NCBI RefSeq assembly: GCF_963676685.1
Contig: NC_092352.1
Span: forward strand, 77,314,001 to 77,378,000
Reading direction: 5' to 3'
From: Mytilus edulis
Taxonomy: Eukaryota
Length of the DNA: 64,000 bases
Of this stretch, positions 37,201 to 40,200 are shown piece after piece. Position numbers: made by a program. How positions within the stretch are numbered: the stretch's first letter is position 1; each line of letters starts with the position of its first letter.

Positions 37201-40200
37201 GTATATGGAACAACCATGCAACAATAACATTCCAGTAACAATTAAAAAATTTACTATCTTTATACTTTGCCACATGTTTAGTTTTTTCATGTACAACTAT
37301 TGTATCTAATAAATATATGAAAAGGTTCACGCAATTAATATCAGCTATTATATACCTTAACTCCTCATGAATATTAATTAAACAAGTTGTTTTATAGACT
37401 ACATATATAGCTACATGAGTTATAATGTATTCTTTATTCTGAGTGGGTCTTTGGATGACCTTAATCTAATCACATCTTATTTTAACATTTAATGAGAAAC
37501 ATTAAGCTAAGGTAAACGAACTGTTATAACCACGCAAATACGAAAGCAAACAGTCCAATATTGTCTCAATATTGGTAAATGAACTGTTATAAACACAAAA
37601 GAGGCGCAAAAAATAACAGATGGACTATAAATCTCATAGATCTACTAAAAAATACCCAAAAGATGTAGATTGTTCGACTCCTTGTTGATGTGTAGATTGA
37701 CTAAGCTGAATTAGGCATACCTTTTCGGATTTTGAGCTATAAATGCTCGTTTTCTTAGTAGTATTAAAAAGATTCGACTTAAATACCACTGATGAATCAA
37801 TTATGGACTAAACGTGCTGAATAAATAGCTTTTGAGATCTCATAAACATGTTTAACCCCGCCGCAATTTTGCGCCTGTCCCAAGTCAGGAGCCTCTGGCC
37901 TTTGTTAGTCTTGTATGATTTTAAATTTTAGTTTCTTGTGTATAATTCGGAGTTTAGTATGACGTCCATTATCACTGTACTATTATGCATATTTTAGGGG
38001 CCAGCTGAAGGACACCTACGGGTGCGGGAATTCTCGCTACATTGAAGACCCATTGGTTGCCTTCGGCTGTTGTTTGCTCTATGGTCGGGTGGTTGTCGCT
38101 TTGACATATTCACCATTTCCTTTCTCAATTTTATTTGTTGTTTGTCCAAGTGGAATTTAAATATTCTTACAACAGGTGTCCACTGTAAATCAAGTAATGT
38201 TGCAAACAGTTAATTTTCGTGTTATTTTCGTGTTTTACAACAATGCAAAATTATGAACCGTCTAACATATGTCTAATATGGTGTTTGTCTTAAATGAAAA
38301 TGCGTTTTAACAAAAATCGATACAATATATCATAAAGCGGGGATAAACCGGAAATATGTCGTCGACAAAATAAATTGGTTTTCAGTACTTCTGATTTAAT
38401 AAGCTGTTGTGCTGAAACATGGATCATAGACACTGTTAAATTGTACCAGGGAAATTACATTATGGCAAATGAAAATTCTTATTGGTGAATAAATGCTGCA
38501 AAAATGGTAAAGGTTCGGCTTAGTTCTTTTTGGTTTTTTTCTGGAGCTTCTCCTATTTATTTTCATTAAACAGTCAAGTATCGGTTTAACCTTTAATTCT
38601 CTACACGTTTTGATGTTTACAGAAAATCAATAACCAACTAAAGAAAAAATCAAAAAGGTAGCGCTTGGAGAGATATAATCTATTTATAGATATTCTGTTT
38701 TGCTTATGAACTGGTTCCAACATAGAATCTCAATATTTTGATCTCATAATTTAGGAATGGTACCAAGATAAATTAACATAAATTGCGACCGCCTTGAAGT
38801 CTAAGGAAGATCCAAAGTGACGGAAGAGGTAGTACAGAATTTATGTATAAGGTTAACTCTTACAAGTTCGGGGTTGACAATATGATCGACGCATAGTCCT
38901 ATATGTTGACCTTTGAACAAAAAAGTTAATTATATGAGCTTTCCATTCTAGGATATTATCTTTAGCGAAACTTCATAGTAAAAGAGGTACAGTTTAGTAT
39001 AGTTTACCTTAATTCAAAAGTTGTGTAAAAAGTTAGTTTACAAATATGACCATATAAATGATAACTCATGTTAGCACAGAGGTGCTGACTACTAGGCAGA
39101 TGATAGCCTCGGGGAATTTAAACTCCTCCAGCAGTGGCATCGACGCAGTGGTTGTAATAAATGCATCATAGATACCAGGATAAAATTGTGTATGTACGCC
39201 AGACGCGCGTTTCGTCTACAATAGAATCATCACTGACGCTCGAATTCAAAAAAGTTAAAAAGGCCAAATAAAGTACGAAGTTGAAGAGGATTGAGGACCA
39301 AAATTCCTAAATTTTTTACCAAATACAGCTAAAGTAATCTATTTCTGAGGTAGAAAACCCTTAGTATTTCAAAAATTCTAAAGTTTTGGAAACAGTTAAT
39401 TTATAAATATGACCATATCAAGCAGTGCTTATATCTACTCTCCACAGTCATTGAAACTCATAGATTCTTGTTGAAAATTGTTGTTGTAATGTTTTCGTCC
39501 ACACAAAAGTAACTCGTAACACTTGAATATGGTTTCCTGTGACTGCGCCATACGAAATAAGCTTGGAATACAAAAATACCTCATTAAAGCTAACAAAAGT
39601 GTGTTCTATCCTAAATAATATTAGTTATCAAAGGTACCAGGATTATAATTTAGTACACTAGACGCGCGTTTCGTCTACATAAGACTCATCAGTGACGCTC
39701 ATATCAAAATATTTATAAAGTACAAAGTTGAAGAGCATTGAAGATCATAAATTCCAAAAAGTTGTGCTAAATACGGCTAAGGTAATATATGCCCGGGATA
39801 AGAAAATGCTTAGTTTTTCGAAAAATTCATAGTTTTGTAAACAGGAATATTATAAAAATGACCACATTATTGATATTCATTTCAACACCGAAGTGTTGAC
39901 TACTGGGCTGGTGATACCCTCTGGGACAAACGTCCACCAGTAGTGGCATCATGATAATATTCCATATTCACAGAAACAGCAGAATTACTTTTCAAATGTG
40001 AGGCCTCATCGGCAAAAAACAAAGAGAAAACACTAACCCCTGGGATACCAGATAGATAATTTAGCCTGTAAACGCTATGATTTATTATGATAAAGGTCTT
40101 CTGTATAGATAAAAATACCATGAGCTTTGAATTTATGCCCAAACAAATCCGGCTGTCAGTTCTATAAAACTTTTGATAAAATCATTTATCCCCGGCTTAG

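What the first reader, a model, noticed from the sequence alone, without database searches (positions are those of the whole stretch)
39014..39961. Two adjacent retrozyme-like monomers inserted in different circular permutations
Seen: one insertion spans ~1.1 units (363-nt period). The other is 331 nt with an 8-bp TSD and starts and ends at a different point of the same circular map. Both are absent from the paralogous segment, and neither terminates at the hammerhead cleavage site. Known: hammerhead-containing ~350-nt non-LTR retrozymes that make circRNAs are described in mussels. Inference: integration by target-primed reverse transcription of circular or multimeric RNA, plausibly using the PLE RT also present here.
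Basis: partly seen in the sequence, partly recalled or inferred. Interest (0 to 1): 0.65.

Follow-up and report, generated by a model that had tools for sequence, protein, structure and literature searches.

The report
Two decayed mussel hammerhead retrozyme insertions
Two neighbouring, long-dead copies of a known mussel "retrozyme" (a small mobile repeat carrying a self-cutting RNA motif) were inserted separately, and one starts at the same point as other copies, which hints at how the family is copied.

Summary
Copy A (39013-39419, 407 nt) is 1.12 units of a 363-nt period. Copy B (39623-39953, 331 nt) lies between two ATAATATT 8-mers. B aligns colinearly on a doubled A unit, so it is a circular permutation. 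A 195-nt spacer shared with the paralogous segment separates the copies, so they are separate insertions made after the duplication. A type I hammerhead sits on the minus strand. B's core is intact; A's is mutated. The host is Mytilus, where such 350-390-bp retrozymes and their circRNAs are published.

Both copies run across the ribozyme cut site and are at least one unit long, so the template was a re-ligated circle or an uncleaved multimer. That is already the published model.

- B's opening point is not arbitrary. Copy G (junction set by another paralog pair) and a fragment in an unrelated public contig start at the same unit position, 31-38 nt 3' of the cut. This suggests a fixed start of reverse transcription, as in Penelope-like elements.
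- A has no target duplication, and 55 bp of target are missing. Its end points are unsafe evidence.
- The only PLE reverse transcriptase here is a 5'-truncated Naiad-type fragment, from a clade without hammerheads.

This is a known family with one modest new detail.

The parts
39013..39419 (-). Copy A: 1.12 units of the retrozyme (363-nt period). The hammerhead (RNA) sense is the minus strand. No TSD; only AA on either side.
39013..39058 (-). A's left terminal redundancy. It repeats 39376-39421 (39 of 46 identical).
39196..39239 (-). A's hammerhead remnant. The core C3 is G and position 10.1 is U, so it is presumed dead. Helix I is good.
39420..39614 (.). Ancestral spacer between A and B, shared with the paralog (39420-39591 vs 14958-15127, 148/173 identical).
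39615..39622 (.). Left ATAATATT. It is a target duplication, a primer microhomology or unit sequence; which one is not resolved.
39623..39953 (-). Copy B: about one full unit (339 nt if one 8-mer is counted). It starts at the shared terminus T1 (AGTT-ATCAAAGGTACC).
39655..39698 (-). B's type I hammerhead. The core CUGAUGA...GAAA...GUC is intact, helix III is the palindrome ACGCGCGU, and helix I is weakened. The cut lies between + 39661 and 39660.
39868..39953 (-). G+C-richer hairpin domain immediately 3' (RNA sense) of T1 on the circle. It is conserved in A, D and H, with 3 compensatory pairs among 18 predicted. Support is weak.
39954..39961 (.). Right ATAATATT.
14903..14957 (.). Paralog at A's site: 55 nt unrelated to the element and absent from the focal copy.
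15480..15497 (.). Paralog at B's site: AT-rich empty site (taaaatgtataaaatttt).
48151..48257 (-). Copy G, a related subfamily with a full hammerhead core at 48176-48219. Its left junction is set by the paralog pair 24472-24742 / 47878-48150. It starts 4 nt before ATCAACGGTACC, the same unit position as B. On the right it abuts a SINE-like element.
56278..56527 (-). Copy C (hammerhead core deleted). Its right end ...ATGACCATAT lies within 2 nt of A's right end and is followed by A14.
53509..53795 (-). Copy E. It is colinear with C, including upstream non-retrozyme sequence, so it is probably the same ancestral copy.
57021..57163 (-). Copy D, a fragment. A second piece lies at about 56946-56999.
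16771..17586 (-). 272-aa C-terminal RT fragment (YLDD) of a Naiad-type PLE. It lies inside a 1.43-kb insertion (16128-17561) found only in paralog 1. It is not linked to A or B.

Best explanation
A and B are two separate, old and now inactive insertions of the Mytilus non-LTR hammerhead retrozyme. Both were made after the local segmental duplication. Both were made by reverse transcription of a retrozyme RNA that still ran across the ribozyme cut site, meaning a re-ligated circle or an uncleaved multimer.

B is the canonical product. First-strand cDNA was primed on the plus strand at an AT-rich site (...ATAATATT-3'). Synthesis started at a family-wide point T1, 38 nt 3' of the cut, went once round the unit and ended at the same point. 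That left an 8-bp repeat that fits both the target and the element.

A is a 1.12-unit copy with other end points, no TSD and 55 bp of target missing. It is either an aberrant integration or a copy trimmed later.

The enzyme was probably the RT/endonuclease of a hammerhead-bearing Penelope-like element elsewhere in the genome, and not the Naiad fragment in this window.

Shown here: the family features, the insertion after duplication, the continuity across the cut site, the lengths and the shared T1. Inferred: the RNA intermediate, the circle, the strand that was primed and the enzyme.
For: Family:
- Type I hammerhead, 26.6 bits, E 6.6e-4 locally and 0.03 for the window.
- In the three full-length hammerheads (A, B, G), 37 of 39 cells pair. 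There are 3 compensatory pairs, one per helix. 39 of 500 shuffles score as high, and slid controls pair in 11-53% of cells.
- The unit is 339-363 nt and GC is 35%. There is no tRNA.
- The host is Mytilus. Mytilus retrozymes of 350-390 bp make abundant circRNAs.

Separate insertions after the duplication.

Template: both copies span the cut site and are at least 1 unit long.

T1:
- B's left end is bounded by its paralog to 39615-39623.
- G's left junction is exact by its own paralog and falls at the same unit position.
- The L006 fragment aligns from B's first base (89.9% over 89 nt; 59 of the first 60 identical). Its 150 nt upstream are unrelated to the unit (61/300, 292/300 and 109/300 shuffles score as well).
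- So 3 of 11 copies examined start at T1.

PLE analogy: a purified lizard PLE nicks AT-rich DNA at 5'-ATT-3' and starts RT internally, 85-92 nt 3' of its hammerhead cut. It does not need ribozyme cleavage. [quoted passage not shown]
Against: - Only 3 of 11 copies are T1-anchored. Four (A, C, E, H) run through T1. Four (D, F, I, J) begin elsewhere, at boundaries I could not verify.
- T1 is also the edge between the conserved core and a variable domain. In L006 the loss of similarity could in principle be a divergent domain rather than flank.
- The right side of G is not colinear with its paralog.
- Including the 8-mer improves the fit of A's and C's internal sequence to B's junction (28 to 31.5 and 28 to 32). 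A true TSD is therefore not shown.
- A's end points do not fit T1.
- The hammerhead score is below Rfam's gathering score. G's hammerhead is not found by Rfam at E up to 10.
- B's monomer does not fold better than shuffles (z -0.47).
- No hammerhead-bearing PLE is in the window.
- Sequence identity to the published clones could not be checked, because the supplements are closed.
Confidence: 0.55

Rival explanations
1. No circle is needed. PLE-style integration of linear read-through or multimeric transcripts makes partial tandems (pseudo-LTR-like ends). B is a plain full-length linear element with fixed ends and a TSD, and A is a partial tandem.
For: PLEs and their non-autonomous derivatives insert as partial or head-to-tail tandems. 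[quoted passage not shown] A's two terminal repeats differ at 7 of 46 positions, which is also what a copy of an already diverged array would show.
Against: B's length equals one unit to within 8 nt, which a lap round a circle explains without a second fixed RNA end. Mussel retrozyme RNA is mostly circular.
Confidence: 0.2
2. DNA-level spread. Extrachromosomal circular DNA excised from a retrozyme or satellite array re-integrated by microhomology or end joining, with no reverse transcription.
For: A single crossover between a monomer circle and a target sharing ATAATATT gives exactly B's structure, and the 8-mer fits the unit's own sequence. A has no TSD and 55 bp of target are missing, as at repaired breaks.
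Against: Copies of different length are anchored at one end, T1 (B about 1 unit, L006 about 90-100 nt, G at least 107 nt). That is the pattern of 5' truncation in reverse transcription. A is 1.12 units, which a monomer circle cannot give by one crossover.
Confidence: 0.1
3. SINE-like mobilisation by a LINE. The plus-strand transcript ends at ...ATGACCATAT (T2) and is copied by a LINE RT.
For: A and C end within 2 nt of the same point, and C is followed by A14. A LINE-type RT remnant (zf-RVT, E 1.1e-5) is in the window at 6359-6847.
Against: Neither A nor B has an A-tail. With about 9 copies, one coincidence of ends within 2 nt is expected by chance (my estimate). E, which is colinear with C, runs past T2. 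No tRNA-like head was found.
Confidence: 0.08
4. A and B are the remains of one tandem array, or were present before the duplication and lost from the paralog.
For: They lie 195 nt apart in the same orientation.
Against: The spacer is ancestral sequence shared with the paralog (148/173 identical). The paralog shows an empty site at B. A and B are only 74.8% alike. With about 11 copies in 64 kb, some pair within 200 nt is not unlikely (my estimate: 0.3 such pairs expected).
Confidence: 0.03

Closest known systems
Non-LTR retrozymes of Mytilus galloprovincialis (Cervera & de la Pena 2020, PMC7229834; I read sections 4, 14 and 17 and passages)
   Same: Host genus; type I hammerhead without strong loop-loop contacts; unit of a few hundred bp (published 350-390; here 339-363); low GC; no ORF, LTR, PBS or PPT; a TSD longer than 4 bp where one is present; many copies.
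   Different: These are solo copies of about 1 unit, not arrays, and both are decayed. Identity to the published clones was not checked (supplements closed). A shared start point T1 is not mentioned in the texts I read.
Penelope-like elements: pseudo-LTR, 'tail' and internal RT initiation (Frangieh et al. 2024, PMC11167929, main text read; Craig et al. 2021, PMC8557442, passages)
   Same: A hammerhead close to the 5' side of a fixed internal RT start; an AT-rich target ending in ATT; copies that run past one unit; cleavage not required for copying.
   Different: A and B carry no RT/EN ORF. The start is 31-38 nt from the cut rather than 85-92 nt. The PLE data come from a lizard element. The only PLE piece here is Naiad-type, a clade without canonical hammerheads.
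Vertebrate non-LTR retrozymes as PLE pLTR derivatives (Li, Clavereau & Pollet 2026 preprint, 10.64898/2026.07.22.740005; abstract and passages)
   Same: Monomer, dimer and multimer copies; dispersed monomers in intergenic DNA; a PLE origin is proposed.
   Different: That work covers vertebrates and classifies copies by number of units. It does not map copy ends in the passages I saw.
circRNA-derived pseudogenes (Dong et al. 2016, PMC4897178; search listing and start of text only)
   Same: Retro-copies whose order of parts betrays a circular RNA template.
   Different: The template there is a back-spliced mRNA circle in mammals. There is no ribozyme and no dedicated family.
Schistosome Sm-alpha / Sj-alpha SINE-like repeats with hammerheads (recalled, from no call)
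   Same: Dispersed and tandem repeats of about 330 nt with a type I hammerhead that works as a dimer.
   Different: They are described as Pol III SINE-like. No A/B box or tRNA-like part was found here.

Membership tests
Metazoan non-LTR retrozymes | Type I hammerhead ribozyme in each unit | tested here: met
   B scores 26.6 bits on Hammerhead_1, below the gathering score of 34, with E 6.6e-4 locally and 0.03 for the window. Its core is intact. In A, B and G, 37/39 cells pair with 3 compensatory pairs. A's core is mutated.
Metazoan non-LTR retrozymes | Unit of about 170-400 nt (mussel 350-390 bp), repeated head to tail | tested here: met
   The period in A is 363. B is 331-339 nt. Only 1.12 and about 1.0 units are present at this locus, so these are solo copies and not arrays.
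Metazoan non-LTR retrozymes | No ORF, LTR, PBS or PPT; GC below 50% | tested here: met
   In the list of 248 ORFs of at least 55 aa, none lies within A or B (one runs from the right flank into B's last 51 nt). GC is 34.9% and 35.6%. No tRNA-like sequence. PBS and PPT were not searched as motifs.
Metazoan non-LTR retrozymes | TSD longer than 4 bp, when present | tested here: inconclusive
   B has an 8-bp repeat, but it also fits unit sequence. A has none.
Metazoan non-LTR retrozymes | Expressed as self-cleaved, circularised RNA | not testable with these tools
   There are no RNA data. The copies cross the cut site, which agrees with a re-ligated or uncut template.
Mytilus galloprovincialis retrozyme families (published clones) | Sequence identity to the cloned repeats or primers | not testable with these tools
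Penelope-like element (autonomous) or its pseudo-LTR | Adjacent RT (+ GIY-YIG) ORF; the repeat is the UTR of that ORF | tested here: not met
   No ORF lies in or next to A or B. A's head-to-tail junction joins unit to unit with no coding part. No RVT_1 hit appeared in the 198 of 248 ORFs of at least 55 aa that I scanned.
Naiad clade of PLEs (for the RT fragment 16771-17586) | DKG motif changed to DKA; GxKF/Y motif; RT at the C-terminus; no canonical hammerhead | tested here: met
   By my reading, the relatives P0006 and P0007 (78-81% identical) carry GPKY and PADKAANN. DKA as the Naiad diagnostic comes from Craig 2021. The ORF ends after the RT with no GIY-YIG. The N-terminal EN was not seen.
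tRNA-derived SINE | tRNA-like head with A and B boxes; A-rich or LINE-matching tail | tested here: not met
   ARAGORN finds 0 genes in the window. A and B have no A-tail. A decayed tRNA-like head could escape ARAGORN.

The most novel reading that the evidence does not exclude
Mussel retrozymes are copied from a fixed internal start (T1) 31-38 nt 3' of the hammerhead cut, beside a conserved hairpin domain. This mirrors the internal initiation of Penelope-like RTs. Solo copies of exactly one unit, such as B, would then be one-lap products of the circular RNA, with a 'TSD' that is the microhomology used both to prime and to close. That would be the first sequence-level signature tying invertebrate retrozymes to PLE-type machinery, and it gives a concrete site to test in vitro.
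Probability: 0.3. Interest if true: 0.6.

Novelty: new member of a known kind. Interest (0 to 1): 0.35.

Why it matters
How animal retrozymes get back into DNA is not known. The review states that their repeats show no motif pointing to the helper element.

A paralog pair that preserves the empty site lets the exact junctions of single insertions be read, which arrays do not allow. If the shared start point T1 holds genome-wide, it narrows the mechanism to site-specific internal initiation. It also gives a simple assay: does a Mytilus hammerhead-bearing PLE RT start at T1 on circular retrozyme RNA?

As it stands the locus is an ordinary pair of dead copies of a published family.

Tried and rejected
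- TRF on 36-43 kb shows no 363-nt array.
- Rfam at gathering threshold gives 0 matches in the window.
- I tested whether the paralog's 55 nt at A's site are a relic of the element. They are no better than shuffles.
- I first read a CCTTA microhomology at A's left junction. After re-registering the repeat against (gapless offset 363) only AA overlaps, so I dropped it.
- Folding B's hammerhead region and whole unit gives no better energy than shuffles (z -0.12 and -0.47). The minimum-energy fold is not the hammerhead.
- G's hammerhead is not reported by Rfam at E up to 10.
- Pfam on 198 of 248 ORFs of at least 55 aa gives no RVT_1. The only hits are 7tm_1, zf-RVT and weak hits. The other 50 ORFs were not scanned; they lie in the near-identical duplicate, the satellite arrays and other frames over the GPCR genes.
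- P0001 has no Pfam hit and no PDB relative (6 hits, all E at least 0.29).
- The Atlas gives only HTH_animal/RVT_1 clusters.
- Reading 16600-17900 with TGA=U was in the wrong frame and gave nothing.
- In the scan of prokaryotic genome contigs with the 19-nt hammerhead word, 13 of 14 loci match only the word plus a few adjacent bases (19-23 nt). One, L006, is real.
- A second shared end, T2 (A and C), is kept only as a note. It is expected by chance among this many ends, and E runs past it.
- A motif scan for ATCAAAGGTACC with up to 2 mismatches gives 6 matches against 5.5 expected, and no new copy.

Not possible:
- A genome-wide map of copy ends.
- Comparison with the published clones and primers, because the supplements are closed.
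Full report
**What is there**

The window is AT-rich (GC 32.7%, no N) and full of repeats. It holds five paralogous single-exon GPCR-like ORFs. One is 99% identical over 84% of its length to a Mytilus edulis protein, and all named relatives are from Mytilus. A segmental duplication relates about 13411-22946 to 37479-47264. The finding lies in the second copy, in intergenic DNA.

**The observation**

- Copy A runs from 39013 to 39419 (407 nt). Its first 46 nt repeat its last 46 nt at an offset of 363 (39 of 46 identical), so it is 1.12 units.
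- Copy B is 39623-39953 (331 nt). ATAATATT lies on either side (39615-39622 and 39954-39961).
- B aligns without a break on a doubled A unit, from position 155 through the unit junction to 494 (74.8% over 345 columns). The two copies are therefore circular permutations of one map.
- The 195 nt between them are ancestral sequence: 148 of 173 positions are identical to the paralog. A and B are two insertions, not one array.
- At B's site the paralog has an AT-rich empty site (15480-15497).
- At A's site the paralog has 55 nt (14903-14957) that are not related to the element. A's insertion either removed target DNA or was followed by a deletion. A has no TSD beyond AA.

**The ribozyme**

Rfam finds a type I hammerhead on the minus strand of B (39698..39655). 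The score is 26.6 bits, under the gathering score of 34. E is 6.6e-4 in a 1.4-kb search and 0.03 for the whole window, and nothing is found at gathering threshold.

The homologous stretch of A has G for the core C3 and U at 10.1, so it should be dead. A third copy, G (48176-48219), has a complete core but is not reported by Rfam.

On the alignment of these three, 37 of 39 cells pair and each helix has one compensatory change. 39 of 500 shuffles do as well, and slid partners pair in 11-53% of cells. With three sequences this is modest support. It agrees with the motif.

Helix III is the palindrome ACGCGCGU (AUGCGCAU in G). A weak helix III in type I hammerheads often allows cleavage only as a dimeric motif.

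Neither the hammerhead region nor the whole B unit folds better than shuffles.

**Position of the ends**

In RNA (hammerhead) sense B ends 38 nt 3' of the cut and begins 293 nt 5' of it. A ends 189 nt 3' of its cut and begins 218 nt 5' of it. Both copies contain the uninterrupted sequence across the cut site. A self-cleaved linear monomer was therefore not the template.

**Other copies and the shared terminus**

nhmmer with the doubled units finds further, more decayed copies:
- C (56278-56527) and E (53509-53795), which are colinear with each other and probably one ancestral copy
- D, F, G and H
- I (19976-20177, with its duplicate at 44209-44409)
- J (minus strand)

Eight of nine independent copies lie in the same orientation (two-sided binomial about 0.04, my calculation).

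G gives a second junction that can be read against a paralog. Homology between 24472-24742 and 47878-48150 stops at ...cagagataa, and G begins TGAA-ATCAACGGTACC. B begins AGTT-ATCAAAGGTACC. Both start four bases before the same conserved word.

One scan of prokaryotic genome contigs with a 19-nt hammerhead word gave 14 loci, of which 13 match only the word plus a few adjacent bases. One, L006, is a chimeric contig. Its first ~750-800 nt are AT-rich (GC 0.34-0.38 in the first two 400-nt windows against 0.51-0.60 in the rest), and it carries a fragment of the B subfamily. That fragment aligns from B's first base (89.9% over 89 nt; 59 of the first 60 identical) and fades after about 90-100 nt. 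Its 150 nt upstream are no more like the unit than shuffles are.

So 3 of 11 copies examined begin at the same point, T1. Four run through it (A, C, E, H). Four begin elsewhere at boundaries I could not verify (D, F, I, J). If ends were random on a 340-nt circle, two further ends on the same base would be very unlikely (about 1e-5; about 2e-4 allowing 2 nt either way; my estimate).

Caveats:
- T1 is also the border between the conserved core and a variable domain.
- G's right side is not colinear with its paralog.
- L006's boundary rests on similarity alone.

**The 8-bp repeat**

Adding ATAATATT between B's last and first bases improves the fit of A's and C's internal sequence to that junction (28 to 31.5 and 28 to 32). 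The paralog's empty site is also ATAA..ATTTT-like. The repeat may therefore be a true TSD, or a microhomology between target and element, and B is then exactly one unit (339 nt).

G's start, which excludes any such 8-mer, argues that the left 8-mer of B is target DNA.

**Mechanism**

The best reading is target-primed reverse transcription on an RNA that crosses the cut site.
- The plus-strand target end ...ATAATATT-3' primed cDNA at T1.
- The enzyme went once round and stopped at its starting point.
- L006 is a shorter copy from the same start, truncated on the far side. G also starts at T1, but its far end is cut by a later insertion.
- A circle explains B's length most simply. A multimer is not excluded.

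This is the published model. What the locus adds is a fixed start.

A purified lizard PLE behaves in a comparable way. It nicks AT-rich DNA at 5'-ATT-3' and starts internally, 85-92 nt 3' of its hammerhead cut. It does not need ribozyme cleavage. A recent preprint derives vertebrate retrozymes from PLE pseudo-LTRs.

Next to T1 on the circle lies the only G+C-richer part of the unit. It folds into a hairpin domain kept in four copies, with 3 compensatory pairs among 18 at weak energy. It could be the protein-binding part, but that is conjecture.

A does not fit the rule. It may come from an aberrant priming event, or it may have lost its original left end together with the 55 bp of flank. A's right end coincides within 2 nt with that of C (...ATGACCATAT). 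With this many ends one such coincidence is expected by chance.

**The PLE in the window**

The only RT with PLE features is a 272-aa C-terminal fragment (16771-17586, minus strand). It lies inside a 1.43-kb insertion that only the first paralog has. It has 447 relatives at E up to 1e-3.
- The near-full-length relatives show GPKY and PADKAANN (my reading). DKA is the Naiad diagnostic, and Naiads lack canonical hammerheads.
- The fragment is truncated, and it belongs to the clade that the shared-hammerhead argument points to least.
- No RVT_1 domain was found in the 198 of 248 ORFs of at least 55 aa that I scanned.

**Age**

A's two terminal repeats differ by 15%, about as much as the flanking paralogs differ (14-18%). 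If the repeats were identical at insertion, A is nearly as old as the duplication. Both ribozymes carry disabling or weakening changes.

**Verdict**

The element is a member of a published family in its known host genus. The proposed mechanism is the standard one and is only partly tested by this locus.

The new point is that B's opening point is shared and is not arbitrary. It rests on three copies and needs a genome-wide map.

My searches found no paper that maps the ends of retrozyme copies. Supplements that I could not see may bear on this.

Noticed in passing
window 16128-17561 (ORF 16771-17586 minus; 16647-16711 minus): 5'-truncated Naiad-type PLE. A sub-threshold SECIS_1 match (30.9 bits, gathering 35, E 0.042) begins 57 nt 3' of the RT ORF's stop. 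Craig et al. 2021 describe selenoprotein-encoding Naiads with a SECIS just after the stop in clams and spiders. The predicted relatives start at the GxKY motif, as if upstream in-frame UGA codons had cut the gene models. This may be a mussel example.
   Followed up: partly
window 37832-38134 vs 16126-16428: 303 nt of that PLE's 3' end occur again, inverted, at 99.67% identity. This is far younger than the surrounding 76-88% duplication, and it abuts the decayed retrozyme copy J (37693-37822).
   Followed up: no
window 13411-22946 vs 37479-47264: The segmental duplication is a mosaic: 76-88% identity near the finding, but 98.7% over 17561-20598 / 41797-44830 and 95.4% beyond. This points to gene conversion or a nested recent duplication.
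   Followed up: no
window 8566-9801, 21911-22846, 36367-37296, 46228-47163, 51047-51979: A cluster of five paralogous single-exon rhodopsin-type GPCR-like ORFs (7tm_1, E 1e-5 for one). Four of the five lie on the minus strand, the same strand as the hammerhead sense of 8 of 9 retrozyme copies.
   Followed up: partly
window 14664-14889 and 15128-15451: The paralog has two stretches of its own (226 and 324 nt) at sites where the focal copy has none. They have no other copy in the window. They are either insertions there or deletions in the focal copy.
   Followed up: partly
window 5061-5243, 24152-24354, about 48258 onward, 56538-56740: A SINE-like repeat starting (a)gaagatgtggtatga and ending in an A-rich tail. 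Two copies abut retrozyme copies G and C on the same side, at different unit positions.
   Followed up: partly
window 28541-30053 and 61100-62334: A satellite array with a 40-nt period (38 copies, 76% matches). A related array in inverted orientation lies near the other end of the window.
   Followed up: no
L006 1-800 (contig CALHGI010000550.1): A contig filed under a cyanobacterial MAG begins with about 750 nt of AT-rich DNA carrying a mussel-type retrozyme fragment, then switches to 51-60% GC. It is a chimeric assembly or host contamination.
   Followed up: partly
window 52976-53795 and 55905-56527: Copies E and C are each preceded by the same unrelated repeat, and the two blocks are colinear at 68-75% identity. 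This is either a composite element or an old local duplication. In both, the G+C-rich hairpin domain of the unit is replaced by an A-rich stretch.
   Followed up: partly
window 6359-6847 plus: ORF with a zf-RVT match (E 1.1e-5, just under the cut-off). It is a remnant of a LINE-type reverse transcriptase.
   Followed up: no
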